Source of the DNA: Bacteriovoracaceae bacterium
GTDB taxonomy: Bacteria; Bdellovibrionota; UBA1018
DNA length: 64,000 nucleotides
Reading direction: 5' to 3'
Assembly (NCBI GenBank): GCA_947447665.1
Contig: CANFJX010000007.1
Coordinates: 87,441 to 151,440, forward strand
The notes below the pieces were generated by a model. That model did no database searches and had not been told where the DNA came from. It saw only the letters and a list, made by a program, of their open reading frames with translations. A program made the position numbers and the translations under genes. Position 1 is the stretch's first letter. Each line of letters opens with the position of its first letter. Below, in pieces: positions 5,925-30,522 of this stretch.

Positions 5925-6914
5925 ATGCCTTGCTTCATTCTATTTTTACTTCTAGCTCTTCCGGCATGTAGTAGCCTACTCAATGGGATGCGCAAAGGCG
6001 CTGATGACTCAGCTACTGATCTCGATGACGGAGACTCGCATCATGAGCCGGATAGTAGGGCAGAGTCTTCGAGTGACCGGAAGCCAGATGGCGTGCGACC
6101 TACTGAGTTGAGTGCTAGCTCTGATCAATCGGATAGCCTTCGCGGCGTTGATGGGGTATCTCGCATTTCATCAAATAATACGCCCATATTTATTCCTAAG
6201 ACTCAGCGGCAGTATAAAAATGGAAATCGTACGACCCGCGAAAATTTTATCGATCAGTCCCAGGACGAAGGCTCTCTCTGGGCTTCGGGGGGACAGACTA
6301 ATTACTTTTTCACGAAAAATCGAGTTAGGAGTCCCGGCGATCTCGTCACCCTGATCTTGGACGACGATCTCTATCGCGATATGATTGTGGAAGCCAAACG
6401 CACACTGAATTACCCTGAAAAAGAAACTGAAATCAATTTGGCACAGGAAAGCCTAACCGCCAAATTTATTGCCGATCGTTTAGCCACGAAAAAAGACGTC
6501 ATCTCAACCTCTGCTGCTGCTCCTGAGGTTCCCTCTGCAGTTGCCGCTCAGGGCCAGGGCGGCCCAACCCCCACCCCTTCTTCTTCTCCAGCGAATGCTG
6601 GGGGTGAAGCAAAGACTAGCTCAGCTGAGTCGCTCAAGGAGCTCGCCAAATTAGCTCCCAAGGCTCGACTGAGCGATATTGATCTCACCAAGTCATTAGA
6701 CCTCAAGGTTGGGGATTCTCTGATGGGGGAGATCCTAGAGCGCTATCCAAATGGGAACTATAAAATCCGGGCAGTTAAAAAAGTATCCTACAAAAACGGC
6801 CCGGCGAGATTCATCAGTGTTGTAGGCATCGTTAAAAATACAGATATTAGTGAAGAAACGGACGGAATTCACTCAGGGAGGCTCTATGAGTATCGAGTTG
6901 AAGTTGCCCACTGA
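5925..6914 (+). CDS. flgH: Divergent flagellar L-ring protein FlgH (lipoprotein)
   Basis: Lipobox LALPAC; GSLW, GDLVTL, YPNGNYKI and GIVKNTDI motifs; lies between flgA and flgI; start 5865 or 5925. Confidence 0.75.
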   Translation: MPCFILFLLLALPACSSLLNGMRKGADDSATDLDDGDSHHEPDSRAESSSDRKPDGVRPTELSASSDQSDSLRGVDGVSRISSNNTPIFIPKTQRQYKNGNRTTRENFIDQSQDEGSLWASGGQTNYFFTKNRVRSPGDLVTLILDDDLYRDMIVEAKRTLNYPEKETEINLAQESLTAKFIADRLATKKDVISTSAAAPEVPSAVAAQGQGGPTPTPSSSPANAGGEAKTSSAESLKELAKLAPKARLSDIDLTKSLDLKVGDSLMGEILERYPNGNYKIRAVKKVSYKNGPARFISVVGIVKNTDISEETDGIHSGRLYEYRVEVAH

Positions 6915-21173: not shown

Positions 21174-23306
21174 CTAGTGGTGCGATAGGCCAGGTGCGCC
21201 AGGCTGCCCGGGCATGCCTGTGCCGCCGCCCATGCCGCCCATCATAGGGTTCATCATGGGGTTCATGCCCATACCGCCCATGCCACCCATCATAGGGTTC
21301 ATCATGGGGTTCATGCCCATACCGCCCATGCCGCCCATCATAGGGTTCATCATGGGGTTCATGCCCATGCCGCCCATGCCACCCATCATAGGGTTCATTA
21401 TGGGGTTCATCATGCCCATGCCGCCCATGCCACCCATCATAGGGTTCATTATGGGGTTCATCATGCCCATGCCGCCCATGCCACCCATCATAGGGTTCAT
21501 TATGGGGTTCATGCCCATACCGCCCATCATGTTTGGATAGGCTGATCCCGGGTTGAACATCTGTGATTGGGCCATTTGATCGTGGTTATGAATCATCTGG
21601 GTTTCGTTAGCGATTTGAGATGCTCGAATAATCAGATCTCTTTGTGCAATTAAATGGGTACATTCTTCCGAGTTCAAGCTTGCTGCGGTTCGGCACGTGG
21701 TTCGTCTCGCCTGAGTCCATTCCTGTAGCAAAGCGCCTTCTTTCATTTGGATCATCGGAGCAGTTAAGTTGCCTTGTCTCACTTCGGTGTGGAGTCGGTT
21801 GATCTTAAGATCCAGGAGTTTTTGGCCATACTGTTTTCTTGCATCGCTGTCGGATCCATTCATGACATTTTTTTCGACGATTTCAATAGCCTTGCTGCAG
21901 CTTTGGGGCGTTGCTGTTGGGTCATCGCCGTGACAAATTTTATTGGCGAGGTTGATGAGGTGAGCTGTTGCTTGTTTTCTGTGGCGAATATCACCGTGAG
22001 AGTCCAAATTCTCAATAAAGTCTACCAGTCGCCCTCGAATATCCTCAACGCGGTTGATGTCAGCGCTGTTGACCGCGTTTACTTCCATGGCAAATTTTTG
22101 GAGCTGCGATTCCTTAACGTCTTGATCCAGTCGGGATAGTTCATGGTTTCTTTGTTGATGACTAATTTCCTTGAAATCCTTGAAGAGGCTTTCGATTGCG
22201 CTCTTAACGTGATGTTGGGAGTCCTCGGTTCGGCAGTAGGGGGAGTTGAGTGTTCGCTTAAGATTAGCTATTTCCCAATTTTTTGCCCGGGTTTCTGTTT
22301 TTTCTAGTTCTTCTCTGTCGTGAGCATCAACAGCTGCTTTGTCCTCGGCAGTCTGAAAGTGGAGAGGGCTTTCGAGCTCTTCGCATTTGATTTTCCTGTT
22401 GGCTTCATCATAATGAGCAATCGAGATTTTGCCCGACTTTCCGATTTCTTTTAGTTTAATGACCGATGCAATTTTGCCCGAGAGTTGACTCCAGTTTGCT
22501 TTAGGGGAGAATTCGGGCAAAAAAGGACCCTGTTTTTGCATAGCCTGAATGCAAGACTCTGCCTTGCCATCGGTGTCATAAAACTGGATCGCCCGTAGGG
22601 TTTCTCCACACTGAGCTTGATCATAAGTTGGACTTGAATCGGGAGCCTTCCAATCGATCTTCAAAGAATCTAAACAGGACTTCGGGAGCTCTCCTGATAC
22701 TTTGACAAAGTTTTGGCTGTCGATTGTAATTGCAAAGCTTGGAATGAGTTCCTGTAAGTCCTTGAGACCCCAAGTCCTCGATTTTCCAACCGGGGCTTCT
22801 TGTGTATTGGATGCCGTCGCCTCTTGCGGGTTGGCTTCATTCTCTATCTTCGTTTTAATTTCTGTGAGTGAGCTCCAGGCTCGATCTAACTCTTTATGTA
22901 ATTGCTCCTGATGAACTGATGCGCTCTTCTTGATTGCCTCTAAAAATGCGGGCTCTAAATGTGGCTGAAGATTGCGTAGTTCGCCGAGTTCCTGGATACC
23001 TAGGCCTTCGAGGCATTTTCTTCCCTGGTCCAAAAGATTTCTACGGTAGTCGATTGATCCGACCTCTTTGATCTTGTTCAAGGTTTTCTCGCAACCTTCT
23101 AGATCGGTTTTAAGTTTTGTAAGCGTACCTGAATATTGGGAAATGACGGAGTTGATTGCGGGTTCACCGGTGTTCTTGAATTGGCCTATCCAAGAATAAC
23201 GCTCTGTTTCACTAGGCCATGTATCGAGTGCAAATGCTTGAGGAGAAGCCAAAGCGAGTCCCAAGCAGGCTAATCCGATTTTGAAATTCTTTTTATCACT
23301 CAACAT
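21174..23306 (-). CDS. Large secreted hypothetical protein with C-terminal Met/Gly tandem repeats
   Basis: AAGGAG SD before ATG 23306; Sec signal ending in AFA; helical Cys-containing body; repeat tail. Confidence 0.85.
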   Translation of the reverse strand: MLSDKKNFKIGLACLGLALASPQAFALDTWPSETERYSWIGQFKNTGEPAINSVISQYSGTLTKLKTDLEGCEKTLNKIKEVGSIDYRRNLLDQGRKCLEGLGIQELGELRNLQPHLEPAFLEAIKKSASVHQEQLHKELDRAWSSLTEIKTKIENEANPQEATASNTQEAPVGKSRTWGLKDLQELIPSFAITIDSQNFVKVSGELPKSCLDSLKIDWKAPDSSPTYDQAQCGETLRAIQFYDTDGKAESCIQAMQKQGPFLPEFSPKANWSQLSGKIASVIKLKEIGKSGKISIAHYDEANRKIKCEELESPLHFQTAEDKAAVDAHDREELEKTETRAKNWEIANLKRTLNSPYCRTEDSQHHVKSAIESLFKDFKEISHQQRNHELSRLDQDVKESQLQKFAMEVNAVNSADINRVEDIRGRLVDFIENLDSHGDIRHRKQATAHLINLANKICHGDDPTATPQSCSKAIEIVEKNVMNGSDSDARKQYGQKLLDLKINRLHTEVRQGNLTAPMIQMKEGALLQEWTQARRTTCRTAASLNSEECTHLIAQRDLIIRASQIANETQMIHNHDQMAQSQMFNPGSAYPNMMGGMGMNPIMNPMMGGMGGMGMMNPIMNPMMGGMGGMGMMNPIMNPMMGGMGGMGMNPMMNPMMGGMGGMGMNPMMNPMMGGMGGMGMNPMMNPMMGGMGGGTGMPGQPGAPGLSHH
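21225..21530 (-). repeat. Coding tandem repeat, unit about 48-51 bp (MMGGMGGMGMNPMMNP), six units plus a partial unit
   Basis: Directly visible repeated catcatagggttcat/gcccat units; unit lengths 13, 17, 17, 16, 16 and 16 codons. Confidence 0.97.
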
Positions 23307-23364
23307 AAGCGTAACTCCTTCAACTGAGGCATTGAGAGAAAGACCTTCTCTCGGGAGTACATAG

Positions 23365-23381
23365 AGCAAGGGGTAGGCCAA
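23365..23381 (-). promoter_or_regulatory. Sigma54 (-24/-12) promoter for the Met/Gly-repeat gene
   Basis: Minus strand TTGGCCTACCCCTTGCT matches TGGC-N7-TTGC with exact GG-N10-GC spacing, about 60 nt upstream of the ATG. Confidence 0.65.
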
Positions 23382-23568
23382 GTTTGATGGGCTGTGTAAA
23401 TTTATATTTATCTTATTATTTCAATTACTTGCAGATCTATTAAATAGCTATAGAGCTTAGCTTGATGTGTGAGTTATGAAGGTTTGTCGATAAAATCGAC
23501 ACGCAAACTTGCGTCCAGTCGCTTGCCTTGTTAAGCTCGCCCCACGTGAAGCAAAAAGGGAGATTCCT

Positions 23569-24630
23569 ATGGTTTTCAAGCAAATGCAGCCAAGTGGTTT
23601 TGAGCAAGTGGTCTTCTGTCAGGACGATCGGGTTGGACTGAGAGCGATTATTTCGATTCACTCTTCAGTCCTGGGGCCTGCCACAGGTGGCTGCCGCATG
23701 TGGAATTACGCCACCGAAGAAGAAGCACTTACGGACGTACTCCGGCTCTCTGAAGGAATGACTTATAAAGCGGCTATGGCCGGTTTGGACTGGGGCGGAG
23801 GCAAGGGCGTGATTTTGGGAGACCCAAAAACTCAGAAGACTCCTGAGATGCTTCAAAGATTTGGGGAATACGTAGATCGCTTGGGTGGTCATTACATTAC
23901 AGCCAAAGATGTTGGCATGGGCGCGGATGATTTGCGCCAAGTCAAACGAAAGACCCGCCACGTTTTAGGAATTGAAGGTGATCCAGGATCCAGCGGCGAT
24001 CCGTCCCCAGCTACCGCTTGGGGAGTTTACCATGGGATGCAATCAGCTGCTCAAGTCGCATTTCAGGCGCGCTCCTTGAAGGGGCTGAGAGTGGCGCTTC
24101 AGGGGTTGGGGAGCGTTTCCTACTACTTGCTCGATTATTTGGTGAAAGAAGGCGCCCATGTGGTGGGTTGCGATATTGATTCCGCTATGGTCGAGCGAGC
24201 GGTTAAAAAATTTGGAATTGAGATCGTCCATCCGGATGCGATATATGATGTGAAGTGTGATATTTTTTCACCCTCGGCTCTCGGCTCTTCAGTGAATCCG
24301 AAGACTCTCCCGAGGATCCAGGCTAAAGTGATCGCAGGCGGGGCTAATAACCAATTGGCAACACTGGAAGAGGGCTATGAGATCATGCGAAGGGGAATGG
24401 TCTATGTCCCTGATTATGTCATCAATGGCGGGGGCCTGATTAATATTTATTATGAGGATCCAATTCGTGGGGGTTATTCCAAGTCTCGAGCTTTTGATCA
24501 TGTCGCCAAAATCGGCCAAACCGTGCTGGAAATTCTCGAGCGGTCGAAGAGCGAAAAGACTCCGTCTCAGATCATCGCGAACCGAATGGCTGAAGAGCGG
24601 ATTGAGAAGAAGCGCAGAAGTATCTCGTAA
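23569..24630 (+). CDS. Leu/Val/Phe dehydrogenase family amino acid dehydrogenase
   Basis: GPATGGCRM, MTYK...GGGKGVI, SGDPS..TA.GV, QGLGSV and GGANNQL. Confidence 0.92.
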   Translation: MVFKQMQPSGFEQVVFCQDDRVGLRAIISIHSSVLGPATGGCRMWNYATEEEALTDVLRLSEGMTYKAAMAGLDWGGGKGVILGDPKTQKTPEMLQRFGEYVDRLGGHYITAKDVGMGADDLRQVKRKTRHVLGIEGDPGSSGDPSPATAWGVYHGMQSAAQVAFQARSLKGLRVALQGLGSVSYYLLDYLVKEGAHVVGCDIDSAMVERAVKKFGIEIVHPDAIYDVKCDIFSPSALGSSVNPKTLPRIQAKVIAGGANNQLATLEEGYEIMRRGMVYVPDYVINGGGLINIYYEDPIRGGYSKSRAFDHVAKIGQTVLEILERSKSEKTPSQIIANRMAEERIEKKRRSIS

Positions 24631-24642
24631 GAGGGCGCTATC

Positions 24643-25689
24643 ATGAGTTCCTTTCGGCCGTCTGATCGATTTGGAATTCAAAGAGTCCTCCTCCCCTCTG
24701 GAGTTCTGCCCCAACAGGCAGACCAGTTGGATCCAGCATTGCCGATCGCAGAAGATGAGCTTCTGATTGAAGTCGAAAGCCTGAATATTGACTCCGCAAG
24801 TTTTCATCAGATTTCAACCGTGTGCGGGGGGGATTTGTTGAAAATAGAGAAGCACATCGTGGATTTAGTCAAACGACGTGGCAAGCATCATAACCCTGTG
24901 ACTGGATCTGGGGGGATGCTAATTGGTCGGGTCACAGCGGTGGGTCCAGCCTTTCCGGTGAGAGAAAAACCAGTACAAGTCGGGGACCGAATCGCCACTT
25001 TAGTTTCCCTCTCTCTCACCCCTCTTGAGATTCGGAAAGTAAAACGAATTCATCCTAAGGTTGACCGAGTAGATATCGAGGGACATGCGATTTTGTTTGC
25101 ATCGGGCCTTTTTTCCCTTCTTCCATCAGATTTGCCCGAATCACTCGCCCTAGCGGTTCTGGACGTTGCAGGTGCTCCCGCTCAGACTCGACGATTGGTG
25201 CAGGCAAACCAAACGGTAGTCGTGATTGGGGGTGGGGGTAAGTCGGGAGTGCTTTGTCTTTATGAGGCTAAGAAGAGTCTGGGTGTCACGACGATCGCTA
25301 TTGATTATTCCGACGCAGGGATTGATCGCCTCAAGACTCTGCCCTTTGTGGATCAGGTAATTCAAGCGGATGCTAGAAATGCTGTTGAGGTGATGAAGAA
25401 AGTATCTGACGCGACCCAAGGGCAAATGGCTGATCTAGTGATTAATGTTGCTAACCTCCCTGAGACTGAAATGTCGAGTGTGTTGAGTTGTAAACGAGGG
25501 GGAGCAGTTTATTTTTTTAGTATGGCCACCAGCTTTACGCGGGCTGCTCTCGGTGCTGAGGGTGTCGGAGCGGATGTGGACTTGAGGATTGGAAATGGTT
25601 ATACCTCTGGCCACGCTCAGCTCGCCCTGGATTTAATTAGGGAAAGTAAGATATTAAGAAAGTTATTTACCGACGTTTATTGCAGTTGA
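24643..25689 (+). CDS. kdd: L-erythro-3,5-diaminohexanoate dehydrogenase
   Basis: LNIDSASF, RGKHHNPVTGSGGML, ATLVSLSLTPL, LDVAGAPAQ and FFSMATSF..AALGAEG. Confidence 0.93.
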   Translation: MSSFRPSDRFGIQRVLLPSGVLPQQADQLDPALPIAEDELLIEVESLNIDSASFHQISTVCGGDLLKIEKHIVDLVKRRGKHHNPVTGSGGMLIGRVTAVGPAFPVREKPVQVGDRIATLVSLSLTPLEIRKVKRIHPKVDRVDIEGHAILFASGLFSLLPSDLPESLALAVLDVAGAPAQTRRLVQANQTVVVIGGGGKSGVLCLYEAKKSLGVTTIAIDYSDAGIDRLKTLPFVDQVIQADARNAVEVMKKVSDATQGQMADLVINVANLPETEMSSVLSCKRGGAVYFFSMATSFTRAALGAEGVGADVDLRIGNGYTSGHAQLALDLIRESKILRKLFTDVYCS

Positions 25690-25728
25690 GTTGTTTGGCG
25701 CGGTGCTCGAATTAAAGGGGAAGTGGTG

Positions 25729-27294
25729 ATGAGTCATCTTCATTTAGATCAAGCTTTAGTAAAGCAGTGTAGAAATCTGGCCAGGGAAATCGCGAGGCCA
25801 GTGGAAAAACTCATCGACGATCATACCACCGTCGCCATCGAGCGCGCTACGCTGAGGTTGATAGGTATTGAAGGAGCCGTGCAGTCTAACAGCCAGTGGG
25901 TGCCTCAAGTCAATCTGATCATTGAAGACCTGCAAAAAGATGGCGTCTTAGGGCGCGGGGCTCTTTACTGGTTCGCCAACGGAATGATTCAAACCAAAAT
26001 GAGCGCTGTTGATCTCGGCGAGGCGGTAGCCAAGAAAAAGCTGAAGCTGCCTGAGCTTCAGCAGGCGCCGGAGAAGGAGATTCGAGAAAAAGCGCTAAAC
26101 CTATGCCAACTCGCTCGCGCTAATCTGGTCAGTCAACGTGAAATGCGGGATTCGCTTCGCTCTGAATTGAAAGACTCATTTGATCCACAAGGTAAAAATG
26201 GGCCGATCCTGTATGTAATTGTTGCTACTGGAAATATTTTTGAAGACGTCATTCAGGCCCAGGCGGCAGCACAGGCTGGCGCCGATGCGATCGCCGTGAT
26301 TCGAAGTACTGCGCAGTCGCTCCTTGATTTTATCCCTCATGGTGCCACCACGGAGGGATTTGGTGGGACCTACGCCACCCAGGAAAATTTTCGGATCATG
26401 AGAAAGGCATTAGATGAAGAGGGTCGAAGGCTGGGTCGCTACATTCGCCTCACCAATTATTGTTCAGGGCTTTGTATGCCAGAAATTGCAGCGCTGGGTG
26501 CTCTAGAACGGCTGGATTTTCTATTAAACGACGCGATGTATGGGATTTTGTTCAGAGACATCAACATGAAGCGAACGTTAATTGACCAGCACTTTTCTAG
26601 AAAAATTATTGCCCTTTCGCGAATCGTAATTCATACAGGCGAAGATAACTATCTCACTACCGCCGACGCAGTTGAGAATGGGCACCAAGTTCTAGCATCC
26701 CAATTCATTAACGAGTGCTTTGCAAAGCATGCAGGAATGACGGAGGACCTCATGGGGCTCGGTCATGCTCAGGAGATGGATCCCGAGCATCCCGATGTGT
26801 TTCTTTTGGAGATTGCCCGAGCTCAGATGACCCGTGATATTTTTCCAGAGTCTCCGATTAAGTTTATGCCTCCTACCCGATTTAAGTGCGGAGATATCTT
26901 TTATAGTCACTTGATGGACGCCATGTTTAACTTCGTCGGAGTCTTAACTGGACAAACGATTCAGCTCCTGGGAATGCCAACTGAGGCGATGCATACGCCA
27001 CTTTTGCAGGACCGTTGGATGAGCATTAAGAATGCAAAATATATTTTTAATGGCGCTAAAAATCTGGGTAGAGAAATCGAGTTTAAGCAAGGTGGAGTAA
27101 TTGAAAGTTGGGCGTCGAAGGTACTAAAAGACACTCATGGGCTCCTGAGTTTGATTCATCAAAAGGGCCTTTTCCAGGCGATTGAAGAGAGGGCCTTTGC
27201 TGAAGTGAAGCGCACCGAAACTGGCGGTAAAGGTCATGATGGTGTGATCCCAAGGGATTCGCAGTACTTGAATCCTTTTTTTGAATTGTTATAG
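25729..27294 (+). CDS. kamD: D-lysine/beta-lysine 5,6-aminomutase alpha subunit
   Basis: HTTVAIER, YVIVATGNIFED, AVIRSTAQSLLD, GFGGTYATQENF, NYCSGLCMPE and YGILFRDIN. Confidence 0.95.
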   Translation: MSHLHLDQALVKQCRNLAREIARPVEKLIDDHTTVAIERATLRLIGIEGAVQSNSQWVPQVNLIIEDLQKDGVLGRGALYWFANGMIQTKMSAVDLGEAVAKKKLKLPELQQAPEKEIREKALNLCQLARANLVSQREMRDSLRSELKDSFDPQGKNGPILYVIVATGNIFEDVIQAQAAAQAGADAIAVIRSTAQSLLDFIPHGATTEGFGGTYATQENFRIMRKALDEEGRRLGRYIRLTNYCSGLCMPEIAALGALERLDFLLNDAMYGILFRDINMKRTLIDQHFSRKIIALSRIVIHTGEDNYLTTADAVENGHQVLASQFINECFAKHAGMTEDLMGLGHAQEMDPEHPDVFLLEIARAQMTRDIFPESPIKFMPPTRFKCGDIFYSHLMDAMFNFVGVLTGQTIQLLGMPTEAMHTPLLQDRWMSIKNAKYIFNGAKNLGREIEFKQGGVIESWASKVLKDTHGLLSLIHQKGLFQAIEERAFAEVKRTETGGKGHDGVIPRDSQYLNPFFELL

Positions 27295-27307
27295 GAATAG
27301 GTCCCAT

Positions 27308-28096
27308 ATGAGTTCACAAGTCGCAGAAGTCAATCTTAAGAAATTGCGTCCATACGGCGATATCATGGATGATGGTACTGTTCAGCTTGCTTTTACATTG
27401 CCGGTGGAGGCATCACCTGAGGCTCGCGAGGCGGCGGTGCTACTCACTCAAAAAATGGGTTTTGAGCAGGTCAAGGTTGCAACGATGGAAAAGGCTGCGA
27501 ACGGTTTTTCTTTTTTTGTCATTTACGCGAAGCTCAAACACACAATCGATTTCACGCAAATTAGCGTGTTGAAGGTGGACGCTCCAAAACGGGCTCGAGA
27601 TGAAGTTGACGAAATCATTCGGACCCAGATTGGTCGCAAGTTAATCGTTTTAGGGGCCTGCACTGGGTATGACGCCCATACAGTGGGTATTGACGCGATT
27701 ATGAATATGAAAGGCTTCGCAGGTGATTATGGCCTGGAGAGATATCAGTGGCTCGACGCTAGAAATCTCGGAGCACAAGTTCAAAATGAAGATTTGCTTA
27801 AATTGGCGGTGCAAGAGAAGGCTGATGCGATTTTGATTTCAAAGGTAGTGAGCCAACACAATATTCATATCAAAGATATGAAGGAACTCATTCAGAGGGC
27901 TGAGAAAATGGGTCTGAAGGACCAACTTATATTTGTCGCGGGCGGGCCTCGTGTGACCCATCCAATGGCTTTAGAGTGCGGTTTTGATGCAGGATTCAGT
28001 GTGGGTACCAAACCCTCGGATGTGGCGAGTTATATTGTCGAGGAGTTTCTACGGAGACGATCACGCCGTGCAGGCAAAAAGGAAGAACCATCGTGA
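27308..28096 (+). CDS. kamE: Lysine 5,6-aminomutase beta subunit (B12-binding)
   Basis: RPYGD..DDG.VQLAFTLP; DAHTVG (DxHxxG cobalamin His); MNMKG (PLP Lys). Confidence 0.95.
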   Translation: MSSQVAEVNLKKLRPYGDIMDDGTVQLAFTLPVEASPEAREAAVLLTQKMGFEQVKVATMEKAANGFSFFVIYAKLKHTIDFTQISVLKVDAPKRARDEVDEIIRTQIGRKLIVLGACTGYDAHTVGIDAIMNMKGFAGDYGLERYQWLDARNLGAQVQNEDLLKLAVQEKADAILISKVVSQHNIHIKDMKELIQRAEKMGLKDQLIFVAGGPRVTHPMALECGFDAGFSVGTKPSDVASYIVEEFLRRRSRRAGKKEEPS

Positions 28097-28998
28097 AAAA
28101 GAGTGCAACCCCGCAGAGTTCGATCGTCGGTCGCGAAGCAGAGCTCTTGCGTCTGAGAGCTTGTCTGAGGGCTGGAAAAAATGTTTTGCTTGAGGGGCCT
28201 GTCGGAGTCGGCAAAACGAGTCTGGCCTTAGAAATCACCCGAGAGCTGAAGAGCCTGGTTTTTCGAGTGGATGGGGATAATCGCTATTCCGAGCAGAAGT
28301 TGTCCGGATGGTTTGATCCTCCGAGTGTGATTCAGAAGGGATATACGGCAGAGACTTTTATGCCAGGGCCGCTCGTAGAGGCCATGCAAAAAGGTGGAGT
28401 GCTTTTTATAAATGAGTTGAACCGATTGCCTGAGGGCGTACAGAACGTTCTTCTCCCAGCTATCGATGAGCGGCTCATTGAGGTTCCGAGACTTGGGGAG
28501 ATTCGCGCTGAGAGGGGATTTCTAGTTATTGCCACCCAAAATCCAAAGGAATTTGTGGCGACCTCGCATTTGAGTGAGGCTGTTCTGGATCGCTTCGAGC
28601 TGATTGTTCTGGACTATCAGACTGAAGAGGAGGAGACCGAGATTGTTGCCCAACGATTAGCTCCGGGGTCCTCTGATATTCTTGAGGATCGACGACTGGC
28701 TCAGGCATCCGTTAAATTGATTCGCCTCACTCGTGACCATCCCCGAGTTCGCAGAGGTGCGTCCGTGCGAGCAGCACTGAGTGTCGCTGAGATTACGAAA
28801 GAACTTGTCTCATCAGGAATGTCGATGGAGGAGGCCTTTCTTCAAGCCGCACTTCTCGCTCTTCCGACTCGAATCGAGTTTGAGAGGGACGCCGAATCGG
28901 ACTTAACGCTTCGTGCAGAGATGGAAGCTTTACTCAAGGAGTGGACCGATCTCGTTTGGCAGGAGTTGGCGGATCCGTCCTTAAAAAAAAAACGCTAG
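28093..28998 (+). CDS. MoxR-like AAA+ ATPase (frame-0 product)
   Basis: Walker A GPVGVGKT, Walker B-like LFINE-LNR, ATQNP, EAVLDRF and GASVRA; GTGA overlap with the kamE stop. Confidence 0.9.
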   Translation: MKKSATPQSSIVGREAELLRLRACLRAGKNVLLEGPVGVGKTSLALEITRELKSLVFRVDGDNRYSEQKLSGWFDPPSVIQKGYTAETFMPGPLVEAMQKGGVLFINELNRLPEGVQNVLLPAIDERLIEVPRLGEIRAERGFLVIATQNPKEFVATSHLSEAVLDRFELIVLDYQTEEEETEIVAQRLAPGSSDILEDRRLAQASVKLIRLTRDHPRVRRGASVRAALSVAEITKELVSSGMSMEEAFLQAALLALPTRIEFERDAESDLTLRAEMEALLKEWTDLVWQELADPSLKKKR

Positions 28999-29028
28999 CT
29001 TCAGAGCCAGCTTTGGCTGAGCCGAGCG
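28983..29028 (+). other. Candidate programmed -1 frameshift or transcriptional slippage site (A10 run plus downstream stem-loop)
   Basis: TTA AAA AAA AAA CGC TAG in frame 0; the -1 frame reads on into the vWA ORF; AGCCA-gctt-TGGCT stem at 29005-29018. Confidence 0.65.
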
Positions 29029-30020
29029 GGCATGCTTTTAAAAGTTCACTCAGTTTCTCGAAGGAAGTTTACCAACGCTCGGAGCCTCTGTTTTTCCCAC
29101 CGGAGGCTTTTGGGAACGTATTTAGCTCCGAAGCAGATGAGGACCACCCAGAATTTAAGGGCTCCAATCACTGGGATATTGCTACTCGCTACCACGAGTT
29201 TAAGGGCAAACGAGTGAGCCAGAATCTGATTCGCAAGCTCAGGGCGTTATCAGCGCAGGCCATTTTAGATCGAGCCCAAGAAGTGTTGGGTTCAGTCGTG
29301 CATCCCTTTCATCGTCATACCTCTCTCTGGAATGATGTGCCCGCCCAGGCGATGGATGTCGATTTTGATTTGGATGAGACCTTGGAACTCTCTCCATTGG
29401 TACTTAAGGATGCTACGACTCGCGAGGCGAGTCGCTTTCCGTTGACTGAACAGGATCTCTGGATGAGTTATTCAGTTCGCCGTACCCAACCCTTGGTCAT
29501 AACTGTTGATACGAGTCTTTCAATGACGGGAGAAAAGCTCGCTCTCACAGCAGTTGCGATTGCTGTGGTACTTCTAGAGTTTCCTGAGGATCCGATCGGC
29601 ATCGTCGCGTTCGAGAATGAGGCTAAGATCTTGAAGCGCCCCGATGAGAAGATTTCGATTCCTCAGTTGGTTGAAAGATTTTTGGACGTTCCGGCTCAAG
29701 GTTATACCCACCTCGAAGAGGGCATGAAGTGCGCCCTCAAGCTTGTTCAGGAAGTTCAGAAAATGGGAAGTGGGAAAATCCCCTCCACTGTCCTTCTTAC
29801 AGATGGAAAATACACCGCAGGTAGAGACCCTGCCTACCTTGCACCTCGGTTTCCTCACCTAGTAATTCTCAAAATGGGTCGAGAGACCTCGAGCCTAGAG
29901 CTTTGCTTGGAAATGGCAAGGAAGGGCAGTGGAGCCCTGCGTGAAGTCGAGGATCTCAACTCGCTACCTAAGGTCATGTATGGCGTGGTCAAGGACCTCA
30001 TCCGCGGCCGTCGGAGCTAG
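28992..30020 (+). CDS. von Willebrand factor A (MIDAS) domain protein, probably the C-terminal part of an AAA+-vWA fusion
   Basis: MIDAS elements VDTSLSM, GYTHL and LLTDG; no well-spaced SD or start (ORF track begins at GTG 28941). Confidence 0.85.
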   Translation, partial: TLASEPALAEPSGHAFKSSLSFSKEVYQRSEPLFFPPEAFGNVFSSEADEDHPEFKGSNHWDIATRYHEFKGKRVSQNLIRKLRALSAQAILDRAQEVLGSVVHPFHRHTSLWNDVPAQAMDVDFDLDETLELSPLVLKDATTREASRFPLTEQDLWMSYSVRRTQPLVITVDTSLSMTGEKLALTAVAIAVVLLEFPEDPIGIVAFENEAKILKRPDEKISIPQLVERFLDVPAQGYTHLEEGMKCALKLVQEVQKMGSGKIPSTVLLTDGKYTAGRDPAYLAPRFPHLVILKMGRETSSLELCLEMARKGSGALREVEDLNSLPKVMYGVVKDLIRGRRS

Positions 30021-30072: not shown

Positions 30073-30522
30073 ATGAAGCTCCTCACTCAGCTGTCTTTTT
30101 CTCTCATGGGTTCCCTATTTCTGTGCTCCCATCTTTATGCTGCTCAGGGAAAGCACCCTGTAGCTTCCCGGAACAGGGTTGATGCCAGGATTCAGCTCAA
30201 CGTAACCTTCGGTGCTAAAACCACAGAGTTTCTCATTACTCAAGACCACGGAGGTGTCCGCTATTCGGTTCGAATTAATCAGGAAAAACCGATTGAAAAA
30301 AAGAGTGACAGGGCCGATCTAGCTTATCTTCTGCAAAAATTCAAACATCTCCCGCCTCAACTTGAGGCTTCAGATCGCTGCGCTAAACAGCGCGTCGATG
30401 TTAAGGTGGTTGGAATCCCAGGACAGAATCATTATGAGAGCTCAGCGTGCCTGGATGAGAATACCGACACGGCCCGAGAACTTCTTGAAATTGCCAATTT
30501 GCTGTCCTACTGGGTGGGTTGA
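30073..30522 (+). CDS. Secreted hypothetical protein
   Basis: Sec-type signal peptide (…HLYAA); two Cys in the mature part. Confidence 0.7.
   Translation: MKLLTQLSFSLMGSLFLCSHLYAAQGKHPVASRNRVDARIQLNVTFGAKTTEFLITQDHGGVRYSVRINQEKPIEKKSDRADLAYLLQKFKHLPPQLEASDRCAKQRVDVKVVGIPGQNHYESSACLDENTDTARELLEIANLLSYWVG

What the first reader, a model, noticed from the sequence alone, without database searches (positions are those of the whole stretch)
28093..30020. Candidate programmed -1 frameshift giving a short AAA+ subunit and a long AAA+-vWA subunit from one gene
Seen: the MoxR-like ORF ends TTA AAA AAA AAA CGC TAG, with ten consecutive A at 28983-28992. The vWA ORF is open through this run in the -1 frame (CTT AAA AAA AAA ACG CTA). 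It has no convincing start: GTG 28941 directly abuts its AAGGA, and the next ATG is at about 29352. A stem-loop (core AGCCA-gctt-TGGCT, 29005-29018, extendable to about 28998-29022) begins 5-12 nt after the run. A -1 ribosomal slip or one extra A gives a 642-aa fusion alongside the 301-aa ATPase. Established: poly-A frameshifts produce ChlI-like and ChlD-like subunits from single chlD-type chelatase genes, and long A runs promote RNA polymerase slippage. Inference: the same recoding logic is used here by a MoxR-type (not ChlI-type) ATPase to set the AAA:vWA stoichiometry.
Basis: partly seen in the sequence, partly recalled or inferred. Interest (0 to 1): 0.9.

Follow-up and report, generated by a model that had tools for sequence, protein, structure and literature searches.

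The report
Conserved poly-A frameshift joins ATPase to vWA
A run of ten A's at the end of a MoxR-type ATPase gene most likely lets the cell make both a short ATPase and a long ATPase-vWA fusion from one gene, a recoding trick so far described for chelatase genes and here kept across a whole group of predatory bacteria.

Summary
An A10 alone is not rare here (7 A/T runs of 10 or more; about 6 expected). Comparison decides it. In 61 of 61 distinct related junctions, and in 7 of 7 and 10 of 10 more distant loci, the vWA frame is -1 to the AAA frame. An A run (A9-A11 in 59 of 61) sits just before the AAA stop, while the flanks have diverged. 44 of 61 have no ATG/GTG/TTG upstream of the run in the vWA frame. 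Start-less sequence after the run evolves as -1-frame coding. Hundreds of in-frame AAA-vWA homologues of about 600 aa exist. I read this as a conserved programmed recoding site giving a 33.6-kDa ATPase and a 71.6-kDa ATPase-vWA fusion. The route (RNA polymerase slippage or ribosomal slip) is open. The proposed stem-loop is not supported. The ATPase is NorQ/CbbQ/MoxR-like, not ChlI-like, and no CobN/ChlH was found. It is a new variant of the frameshifted-chlD kind. It usually follows kamDE; a role on that enzyme is untested.

The parts
28093..28998 (+). Zero-frame ORF for a MoxR/NorQ/CbbQ-like AAA+ ATPase, 301 aa, 33.6 kDa. Its GTG start overlaps the kamE stop (GTGA). The AAA_5 domain covers about 28180-28596.
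   Evidence: Pfam PF07728 E = 4e-21; PDB hits midasin 8e-33 and NorQ 3e-12; mass.
28983..28992 (+). A10 slip site. The zero frame reads TTA AAA AAA AAA, followed by one codon and TAG.
   Evidence: An A run at the same place in 61 of 61 related junctions: A9 in 35, A10 in 22, A11 in 2, A6 in 1, A7 in 1. Also in 7 of 7 and 10 of 10 distant loci.
28996..28998 (+). Zero-frame stop TAG, one codon after the run. It ends the short product.
   Evidence: In 51 of 61 relatives the stop lies within 2 codons of the run's end.
28992..30020 (+). -1-frame continuation (342 aa plus stop), read only after the shift: linker, helical segment and vWA domain. Joined to residues 1-300 it gives a 642-aa, 71.6-kDa fusion.
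   Evidence: -1-frame coding signature directly after the run in relatives. In-frame homologues align end to end.
28992..29100 (+). Linker between the ATPase and the vWA module, from KKK to the conserved FxPPE motif.
   Evidence: Motifs. The equivalent stretch (residues 323-352) of the in-frame homologue P0122 is the only long low-confidence segment of its model.
29493..29807 (+). vWA domain. It carries a DxSxS...T...D pattern of MIDAS type; that motif definition is recalled, not from a call.
   Evidence: Pfam PF13519 E = 4.9e-9, residues 185-289 of the ORF counted from 28941. Invariant D190, S192, S194, T256 and D288 in alignment A1.
28941..28958 (+). Candidate own starts of the vWA frame upstream of the run: GTG 28941 and TTG 28956. 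I judge them by-products of the AAA frame, not conserved starts.
   Evidence: The GTG/ATG arises from an [EQ]W dipeptide in the AAA frame. It is present in 23 of 61 loci, and the frame is open from it to the run in only 13. Within the window's genus it is open in 2 of 4. 44 of 61 loci have no upstream start.
29005..29018 (+). It is present in the sequence but not supported as a signal.
   Evidence: z = 0.21. The 60 nt after the run in 60 relatives have mean z -0.38, against -0.02 and -0.18 for control stretches.
23509..28096 (+). Upstream genes of the same operon: an ELFV-type amino-acid dehydrogenase (23509-24630), kdd (24643-25689), kamD (25723-27294) and kamE (27281-28096).
   Evidence: NF052381, NF052384 and NF052385 score over their cut-offs. 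kamE is adjacent in 46 of 61 junctions.

Best explanation
One recoded gene follows kamE. Standard decoding of 28093-28998 gives a 301-aa NorQ/CbbQ/MoxR-type AAA+ ATPase that stops one codon after an A10 run. In a fraction of events the reading moves to the -1 frame inside the run. This happens either because RNA polymerase adds one untemplated A, or because the ribosome slips back one base on the Lys codons. Translation then continues through a flexible linker into a vWA (MIDAS) module and gives a 642-aa fusion. The cell thus gets short and long subunits with the same ATPase domain. These presumably co-assemble into one hexamer that carries a limited number of vWA arms. The arrangement resembles ChlI with ChlD, or NorQ with NorD, except that here both subunits come from one gene. 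What is shown: the site, its conservation, the lack of own starts, the coding signature after the run, and the existence of in-frame fusions. What is inferred: that both products are made, their ratio, and their co-assembly. On the route, I lean to transcriptional slippage as the main contributor (about 0.5), with ribosomal slippage at about 0.35. My reason is that at least nine A's are kept where seven bases would do for a ribosomal heptamer, and no flanking stimulator is conserved. On function, I infer a MoxR-vWA type remodelling or cofactor chaperone, most often serving lysine 5,6-aminomutase.
For: (1) Offset and run. Among L001-L083, 79 loci hold both halves, giving 61 distinct junctions. 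60 were scored -1. The 61st, L049, reads -1 at the run and has a second frame change about 55 codons later. Runs are A9 in 35, A10 in 22, A11 in 2, A6 in 1 and A7 in 1. Length variants arise by substitution and keep the offset. Seven loci with only 28-38% vWA identity and 10 loci from other families of the phylum all have A9-A10 and -1.
(2) Starts. 44 of 61 have no ATG/GTG/TTG in the vWA frame upstream of the run. In 34 of 61 there is also none within 60 nt after the AAA stop. Where upstream starts exist, they are by-products of an [EQ]W dipeptide in the AAA frame.
(3) Coding signature. In 8 close pairs, mismatches fall on zero-frame third positions upstream of the run (118 of 172) and on -1-frame third positions downstream (116 of 213). 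In the start-less stretch alone, 110 of 224 mismatches fall on the -1-frame third position, against 55 and 59 on the others. Conserved FKSIF-like and FxPPE motifs lie upstream of the first possible start in 25 of 31 and 29 of 54 loci.
(4) Fusions. 348 proteins of 528-2000 aa match the ATPase at E <= 1e-10 among 8000 scored candidates. The 120 listed are about 584-661 aa and nearly all carry AAA_5 plus vWA. 75 of 75 metagenome loci with both halves are in frame. The in-frame homologue P0122 reads KKK-D-L at the junction, as the -1 product would.
(5) The genome-wide AAA share of Lys codons is only 0.56, yet the run is kept.
(6) The A10 is reproduced in 4 contig sets from 3 studies.
(7) Precedent. 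Poly-A cassettes from frameshifted Mg-chelatase genes gave 10%, 40% and 63% shift in E. coli with 7, 9 and 11 A's (PMC3711429, passages read). Nine is the usual length at which transcriptional slippage matters, and T. thermophilus dnaX uses an A9 (PMC1088944, abstract and background read).
Against: No RNA or protein data exist for this organism. No RNA run was listed, so neither product has been seen. The window itself has own-start candidates: GTG 28941, TTG 28956 with AAGGAG 14 nt upstream, and TTG 29013. 17 of 61 loci have an upstream in-frame start. 13 of 54 have an ATG one or two codons before the FxPPE motif, which gene callers use (P0005, P0006). A stand-alone vWA protein made by internal initiation therefore cannot be excluded in some lineages. 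No conserved downstream structure was found. An upstream SD-like element is marginal at best: 13 of 61, against 3, 6 and 9 of 61 in shifted controls. The genome has tRNA-Lys(CUU) as well as (UUU). From recalled E. coli work, this should make A_AAA_AAG less shifty. Against a purely transcriptional route, the base after the run is G in 53 of 61 loci, although the amino acid it starts varies. That fits the ribosomal heptamer A_AAA_AAG. A single A10 is not rare in this genome.
Confidence: 0.86

Rival explanations
1. Same two products, but the main route is a ribosomal -1 slip of tRNA-Lys on A_AAA_AAG/A, as in E. coli dnaX, not RNA polymerase slippage. This is nested inside the best explanation; the figure is my share for this route.
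For: 53 of 61 junctions have G right after the run, so the zero frame reads A_AAA_AAG, while the residue encoded there in the -1 frame varies (D, A, E, G, V). The one locus with only A6 (L034) keeps exactly A_AAA_AAG and has a strong hairpin 3-5 nt downstream: -32.5 kcal/mol, z = -2.48, 1 of 200 shuffles as good.
Against: 59 of 61 keep nine or more A's, although seven bases would suffice. There is no conserved hairpin and no clear SD element. The window itself has A10 followed by C, so it has no AAG codon. tRNA-Lys(CUU) is present. The second short-run locus, L082 (A7), has no significant hairpin: z = -1.21.
Confidence: 0.35
2. Two ordinary overlapping genes. The vWA protein starts on its own (TTG 28956, GTG 28941, TTG 29013 or a Met before FxPPE), and the A run merely encodes a Lys-rich tail.
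For: Gene callers annotate it this way. The window has AAGGAG upstream of TTG 28956. 17 of 61 loci have an upstream in-frame start, and 13 of 54 have an ATG just before FxPPE.
Against: 44 of 61 loci have no upstream start, and 34 of 61 have none until at least 60 nt past the AAA stop. Start positions differ by about 45 codons within one genus. Upstream starts are by-products of [EQ]W, and the frame is closed before the run in 10 of 23 such loci. Start-less sequence evolves as coding. Three Lys codons plus the preceding base are A at nearly every synonymous site, although AAA makes up only 0.56 of Lys codons. In-frame fusions are the rule outside this group.
Confidence: 0.07
3. Phase variation. 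The A run is a DNA-level contingency tract that switches an in-frame fusion gene on and off by replication slippage.
For: Homopolymer tracts of this length are also slippery for DNA polymerase (PMC3711429, passage read). One near relative from a metagenome, P0122, is in frame.
Against: All 61 distinct junctions, plus 7 and 10 distant ones, are in the same -1 state. Four assemblies of the window's population agree on A10. The protein is cytoplasmic and sits in a metabolic operon, not on the surface.
Confidence: 0.03
4. Artefact or decay: a homopolymer sequencing error in an ordinary fused gene, or a pseudogene.
For: Homopolymers are error-prone. The locus comes from a metagenome-assembled genome.
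Against: The same offset occurs in dozens of independent assemblies. Run lengths of 9, 10 and 11 all preserve -1 by substitution, not by indel. Four assemblies show 0 gaps. Both halves are under purifying selection.
Confidence: 0.01

Closest known systems
Frameshifted chlD (fs-chlD) genes of class I Mg/Co chelatases (Antonov et al. 2013, PMC3711429; Kuznetsov et al. 2022, PMC9227772; Antonov 2020 MBE, not held and known to me only through the 2022 paper)
   Same: One gene, annotated as two genes of about 1 kb each. A -1 shift at an A-rich run sits between an AAA+ module and a vWA module. The short product is ChlI-like and the long product is ChlD-like. In-frame fusions occur in other taxa. Some carriers lack chlorophyll and B12 pathways and any large subunit, and their function is unknown.
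   Different: The ATPase here is of AAA_5/NorQ/CbbQ/midasin type. ChlI in the PDB matches only at E = 3.7e-4. TIGR02031 and TIGR02442 score 34-35 bits against cut-offs of 499 and 779. No CobN/ChlH was found in the genome. The gene follows kamDE. The carriers are Bdellovibrionota-type bacteria, which are not among the genera named in the passages I read. I could not see the supplementary gene lists or the Chelatase DB, so earlier inclusion cannot be excluded.
dnaX tau/gamma: transcriptional slippage at A9 in Thermus thermophilus, ribosomal -1 shift at A_AAA_AAG in E. coli (as described in PMC1088944 and PMC3711429)
   Same: A run of nine A's, or A_AAA_AAG, in a cellular gene gives two subunits that share an N-terminal AAA+ module. 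Stops follow closely in the other frames. The two routes are interchangeable between lineages.
   Different: In dnaX the slip makes the shorter product; here it makes the longer one. No conserved SD or hairpin stimulators were found here.
Shigella mxiE (transcriptional slippage needed for the longer product; PMC1088944 background)
   Same: Two overlapping ORFs are fused at the mRNA level by one untemplated base in a homopolymer. The longer protein needs the slip.
   Different: mxiE uses a T/U run in a regulator gene of one genus. Here the run is of A's, in an AAA+-vWA gene, and is kept across a phylum.
MoxR AAA+ / vWA chaperone pairs: NorQ-NorD and CbbQ-CbbO (PMC13036017 abstract read; PMC9976466 search listing only)
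   Same: The ATPase fold is closest to NorQ (TM 0.83 over the target) and CbbQ (0.79). A vWA partner is encoded directly downstream. The system sits next to a cofactor-dependent enzyme.
   Different: In those systems the vWA protein is a separate, separately initiated polypeptide that docks on the hexamer. Here it is tethered to an ATPase copy by recoding. No target has been shown.
In-frame AAA_5-vWA proteins of about 600 aa (labelled 'AAA family ATPase', 'MoxR-like ATPase', 'GvpN' or 'ChlD' by their sources; some labelled Thermoplasmata archaea)
   Same: 50-61% identity in the ATPase and colinear over both modules. Several have a Lys-rich junction.
   Different: They are single ORFs: 75 of 75 loci. 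Only 3 of 75 have a linker A run of 9 or more. None of the 80 loci has kamDE.

Membership tests
Frameshifted chlD (class I chelatase medium/small subunit gene) | N-terminal ATPase of ChlI/BchI type (Pfam PF01078; NCBIfam TIGR02031 / TIGR02442 over cut-off) | tested here: not met
   TIGR02442 scores 34.5 and 35.2 bits against a cut-off of 779. TIGR02031 scores 34.3 against 499. PF01078 matches only the P-loop stretch 11-50. By sequence, midasin (8e-33) and NorQ (3e-12) come before ChlI (3.7e-4). The top folds are NorQ and CbbQ.
Frameshifted chlD (class I chelatase medium/small subunit gene) | C-terminal vWA domain after a linker | tested here: met
   PF13519 E = 4.9e-9. The disordered linker is seen in the model of the in-frame homologue.
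Frameshifted chlD (class I chelatase medium/small subunit gene) | -1 shift at an A/T-rich slippery run between the two modules, conserved among relatives | tested here: met
   61 of 61, 7 of 7 and 10 of 10 junctions.
Frameshifted chlD (class I chelatase medium/small subunit gene) | Works with a large subunit (CobN/ChlH) | tested here: not met
   PF02514 was not found in G000 (95.5% complete), while the control search rang in 5 of 14 known genomes. The 2022 paper also describes fs-chlD carriers without a large subunit, so this feature is not universal.
MoxR AAA+ / vWA chaperone systems (NorQD, CbbQO type) | MoxR-class (AAA_5) ATPase | tested here: met
   PF07728 E = 4e-21. NorQ and CbbQ are the best folds.
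MoxR AAA+ / vWA chaperone systems (NorQD, CbbQO type) | vWA partner encoded next to the ATPase | tested here: met
MoxR AAA+ / vWA chaperone systems (NorQD, CbbQO type) | vWA partner is a separately initiated polypeptide | tested here: not met
   No own start in 44 of 61 junctions. Direct proof at the protein level is lacking.
MoxR AAA+ / vWA chaperone systems (NorQD, CbbQO type) | Defined client enzyme whose cofactor site is remodelled | not testable with these tools
   Only gene neighbourhood is available. kamE is adjacent in 46 of 61 junctions, and in 46 of the 53 that have upstream sequence. kamDE is adjacent in 9 of 10 distant loci.
Programmed transcriptional realignment sites | Homopolymer of about 9 or more A/T in the coding strand | tested here: met
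   A10 in the window. 59 of 61 relatives have A9-A11.
Programmed transcriptional realignment sites | mRNA population with untemplated run lengths | not testable with these tools
   No RNA run holds the stretch.
dnaX-type ribosomal -1 frameshift site | In-frame heptamer A_AAA_AAG | tested here: inconclusive
   Present in 53 of 61 relatives (G after the run). The window has A_AAA_AAA followed by C.
dnaX-type ribosomal -1 frameshift site | Upstream SD-like and downstream hairpin stimulators | tested here: not met
   SD-like tetramer in 13 of 61, against 3, 6 and 9 of 61 in controls. Downstream fold mean z = -0.38, against -0.02 and -0.18. Window z = 0.21.

The most novel reading that the evidence does not exclude
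The recoded pair is the ATP-dependent chaperone or reactivase of adenosylcobalamin-dependent lysine 5,6-aminomutase. It would be a MoxR-vWA machine that pulls on KamE to release damaged cobalamin or to load cofactor. The A run would fix how many vWA arms each ATPase hexamer carries. From recall of the old clostridial enzymology, no paper seen, an ATP-requiring activating protein ('E2') of lysine mutases was described but never assigned to a gene. This system could be such a factor in Bdellovibrionota. In favour: the order kamD-kamE-AAA-vWA is kept across families whose vWA parts are only 25-35% identical. The ATPase start overlaps the kamE stop. No GlmL/MutL-type reactivase (PF13941) was found in the genome. 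Against: the recoded gene persists in 5 genomes where KamD was not found with this query. In-frame homologues elsewhere are not next to kamDE.
Probability: 0.2. Interest if true: 0.8.

Novelty: new variant of a known kind. Interest (0 to 1): 0.68.

Why it matters
Few cellular, non-mobile bacterial genes are known to depend on conserved programmed frameshifting or transcriptional slippage. From recall, prfB, dnaX, chlD and a handful of others make up the list. This locus adds a case conserved across families of a phylum, in a different branch of AAA+ ATPases. The same solution, a short ATPase and a long ATPase-vWA from one gene, has therefore been reached or kept outside the chelatases.

There are practical consequences. 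Current annotations split the gene into two and place the vWA start inconsistently: 309 to 359 aa within one genus. The real long product is therefore missing from protein databases.

The locus also gives a natural series for separating transcriptional from ribosomal slippage: A6G with a hairpin, A7, A9, A10, A11, and in-frame fusions with or without runs. Finally, it points to an unexplored MoxR-vWA machine tied to a B12 enzyme operon.

Tried and rejected
RNA evidence: the look-up of sequencing runs listed no RNA holder, so expression and run-length heterogeneity in mRNA could not be examined.

Binding test: complex prediction of KamE with the vWA module returned 'no answer' (score 0.00). I do not count it either way.

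Stem-loop as stimulator: rejected for the window (z = 0.21) and as a conserved feature.

Upstream SD-like stimulator: marginal and not conserved.

Link between short runs and hairpins: only L034 is significant. L082 is not. With n = 2 this is an anecdote.

E. coli-type argument that A_AAA_AAG is shifty because tRNA-Lys(CUU) is missing: it does not apply, since both tRNAs are present.

Chelatase reading: rejected.

Strict KamDE dependence: weakened. 7 loci with enough upstream sequence lack kamE. KamD was not found in 5 such genomes with this query, among them G008 (92% complete) and G021 (97%).

Literature: searches found no paper on this system. One search (lysine aminomutase plus reactivation) found nothing. 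One search gave only pathway papers, and the one I opened (PMC3149608, passages) does not mention a reactivase or an ATPase. Antonov 2020 (MBE) is not held. Supplementary files were not opened; they were announced as closed. The supplementary tables and figures of PMC3711429 and PMC9227772, and the Chelatase DB, may list genes of this family. My novelty call rests on main text only.

Not used: the search of protein representatives, the protein-atlas search, the third homologous-protein search, and the Rfam and covariance-model tools.

Full report
THE OBSERVATION. The window has ten A's at 28983-28992. The 301-aa ORF 28093-28998 reads TTA AAA AAA AAA CGC TAG through the run. The -1 frame is open from 28884 to 30020 and encodes a vWA domain. 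Two further in-frame candidates were missed. TTG 28956 lies 14 nt after AAGGAG and is the start of the gene call P0002. The other is TTG 29013. The conceptual fusion has 642 aa and 71.6 kDa; the short product has 33.6 kDa. The stem-loop at 29005-29018 exists but folds no better than shuffles: z = 0.21, with 106 of 200 shuffles as good. A single A10 is not unusual in this 2.5-Mb genome. There are 7 A/T runs of 10 or more and 68 of 9 or more, against about 6 and 24 expected from base composition. Four Logan contig sets from four DNA runs (3 studies, depth 10-20) match 28300-29700 with no difference and no gap. Some of these may be the source of the assembly.

CONTEXT. The gene is last in an operon: ELFV-type dehydrogenase, kdd, kamD, kamE, then the ATPase. 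The ATPase's GTG overlaps the kamE stop. Arginine succinyltransferase-pathway genes lie upstream. A CCG/Fe-S protein and ETF genes lie downstream on the other strand. Names attached to relatives place the organism among Bdellovibrionota-type MAGs, with labels such as Bacteriovoracaceae, Oligoflexia and Bdellovibrionia.

COMPARATIVE TEST. 36 of 41 related genomes hold a vWA homologue. In the first 20 loci, 18 hold both halves, and all 18 have the vWA frame at -1 with an A9 or A10 run 10-31 nt before the ATPase stop. Adding 63 loci from GTDB genomes gives 83 loci. Four lack the ATPase half at a contig end, 79 have both halves, and 61 junctions are distinct. Sixty were scored -1. The 61st, L049, reads -1 at the run, passes through the conserved FKSIF and FLPPE motifs, and then has a second frame change that looks like an error or decay. 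Run lengths are A9 in 35, A10 in 22, A11 in 2, A6 in 1 (L034) and A7 in 1 (L082). A9, A10 and A11 all keep the -1 offset, because the extra A's replace a flanking base instead of being inserted. That excludes random homopolymer error. The 33 nt before and 14 nt after the run share almost nothing among loci. The zero-frame stop lies within two codons of the run in 51 of 61. The +1 frame closes after a median of 6 codons. Seven loci from the same order with only 28-38% vWA identity are also -1 with A9-A10. One paralogue, L091, is an in-frame 660-aa fusion. In a sample of 151 genomes of the phylum, 36 have a homologue at E <= 1e-20. Ten loci drawn from these hits, most from other families of the phylum with 25-35% vWA identity, are all -1 with A9-A10. 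One of them (L189) repeats L039, and nine of the ten follow kamD-kamE.

IS THE vWA FRAME TRANSLATED FROM ITS OWN START? 44 of 61 junctions have no ATG/GTG/TTG in the vWA frame between the preceding stop and the run. In 34 of 61 there is also none until at least 60 nt past the ATPase stop. Upstream starts, where present, sit where the ATPase has an [EQ]W dipeptide, which automatically writes RTG in the -1 frame. This occurs in 23 of 61 loci, and the frame is open from there to the run in only 13. Within the window's genus it is open in 2 of 4. After the run, FKSIF-like and FxPPE motifs lie upstream of the first possible start in 25 of 31 and 29 of 54 loci. In 8 close pairs, mismatches switch from zero-frame third positions (118 of 172, upstream 120 nt) to -1-frame third positions (116 of 213, downstream 120 nt). 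In start-less segments of 9 pairs the counts are 55, 59 and 110 for -1-frame positions 1, 2 and 3. Two pairs were skipped because the segment was only 20 nt, and one locus enters twice. Against my reading, 13 of 54 loci have an ATG one or two codons before FxPPE, and gene callers start there. An extra stand-alone vWA product is possible in some lineages.

THE FUSION IS A NATURAL PROTEIN. A search for longer relatives of the ATPase found 348 proteins at E <= 1e-10 among the 8000 scored candidates. The 120 listed are about 584-661 aa, 50-61% identical, and nearly all carry AAA_5 plus vWA. They align over both modules. P0122, a near relative, is in frame and reads KKK-D-L at the junction. Of 80 metagenome loci fetched with this family, 75 hold both halves, all 75 are in frame, and none shows kamDE. 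Only three (L165, L172, L180) have an in-frame A run of 9-11 in the linker, with early stops in both other frames. An AlphaFold model of P0122 has mean pLDDT 85.6 and shows two confident modules joined by a disordered stretch (residues 323-352) that begins at the Lys triplet.

WHAT KIND OF ATPASE. Pfam gives AAA_5 at E = 4e-21. NCBIfam's best hit is GvpN, far under its cut-off, and the chelatase models score 34-35 bits against cut-offs of 499-779. Against PDB sequences the order is midasin (8e-33), NorQ (3e-12), a MoxR protein (2r44), CbbQ, and then ChlI (3.7e-4). The vWA profile hits BchD only at 1.2e-3. The model's best folds are NorQ (TM 0.83 of the target) and CbbQ (0.79). The genome has no chelatase-grade ChlD and no CobN/ChlH. 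So the system works like ChlI/ChlD made from fs-chlD, but it is not a member of that family. It is a MoxR-vWA system with a tethered vWA.

ROUTE. For transcriptional slippage: 59 of 61 keep at least nine A's, which is the length at which slippage becomes relevant in many bacteria and the length used by T. thermophilus dnaX (PMC1088944). No stimulator is conserved. tRNA-Lys(CUU) is present. For ribosomal slippage: G follows the run in 53 of 61 although the residue it starts varies, giving A_AAA_AAG. The A6 locus L034 keeps that heptamer and has a strong hairpin. In E. coli reporters, chelatase cassettes with 7, 9 and 11 A's gave 10, 40 and 63% shift (PMC3711429). If this locus behaves likewise, a third to a half of the product would be the fusion. 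That is an inference.

FUNCTION. MoxR ATPases with vWA partners remodel client enzymes for metal insertion (PMC13036017, abstract). kamE is adjacent in 46 of 61 junctions. Of the 15 without it, 8 are cut by a contig end and 7 truly lack it. In three of those seven the gene follows the ELFV dehydrogenase directly. KamD was not found with this query in 5 such genomes. G000 has a BKACE (kce) gene elsewhere and no PF13941 reactivase. A role on lysine 5,6-aminomutase is therefore plausible but neither shown nor exclusive.

VERDICT. This is a real, conserved recoding site (confidence 0.86). It is a new variant of the poly-A fs-chlD kind, in a MoxR-type system. The route and the client are open.

Noticed in passing
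L034:6001-6072: The only junction with a short run (A6, still A_AAA_AAG in frame) has a strong hairpin starting 3-5 nt after the heptamer: -32.5 kcal/mol, z = -2.48. This lineage may have moved from a long-run mechanism to a classical ribosomal one. The A7 locus L082 has no significant hairpin (z = -1.21).
   Followed up: partly
L165 about 3876, L172 about 1247, L180 about 3815: Three in-frame AAA-vWA fusion genes from metagenomes carry an in-frame A9-A11 run at the same linker position, with early stops in both other frames. This is the mirror arrangement, where a slip would give the short ATPase, as in dnaX. It may also be chance, since these three loci look A/T-rich to the eye (not measured).
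   Followed up: partly
L049 about 5990-6010 (about 55 codons after the run): A second frame change lies inside the linker of one relative. It is either an assembly error or a decaying copy.
   Followed up: no
L029, L042, L053 (upstream of the ATPase): In three relatives kdd-kamD-kamE is missing and the recoded gene directly follows the ELFV-type dehydrogenase. KamD was not found in 5 genomes of this kind with the window's protein. The system is therefore not strictly tied to the aminomutase.
   Followed up: partly
window 28380-28440 (ATPase residues about 100-115): The Walker B position reads hhhhNE (LFINELN) rather than hhhhDE, and the N and E are invariant in 16 fused homologues (alignment A2). 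The motif definition is recalled, and the consequence for ATP hydrolysis is unknown.
   Followed up: no
window 21174-23381 (-): A 734-aa ORF between the arginine-catabolism genes and the kam operon has no Pfam or NCBIfam match.
   Followed up: no
window 30073-30522 (+): A 149-aa ORF just after the vWA gene has a hydrophobic, signal-peptide-like N-terminus and no family match.
   Followed up: no
G000 genome, 68 sites listed: The genome holds 68 A/T runs of 9 or more, about 24 expected from composition, and 7 runs of 10 or more. I did not check whether others lie at ORF junctions and could be further slippage sites.
   Followed up: no
proteins P0002, P0005, P0006 and the list: Public gene calls for the vWA half range from 286 to 371 aa. 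Starts differ by about 45 codons within one genus. The fusion product is not annotated for any of these Bdellovibrionota-type gene calls.
   Followed up: yes
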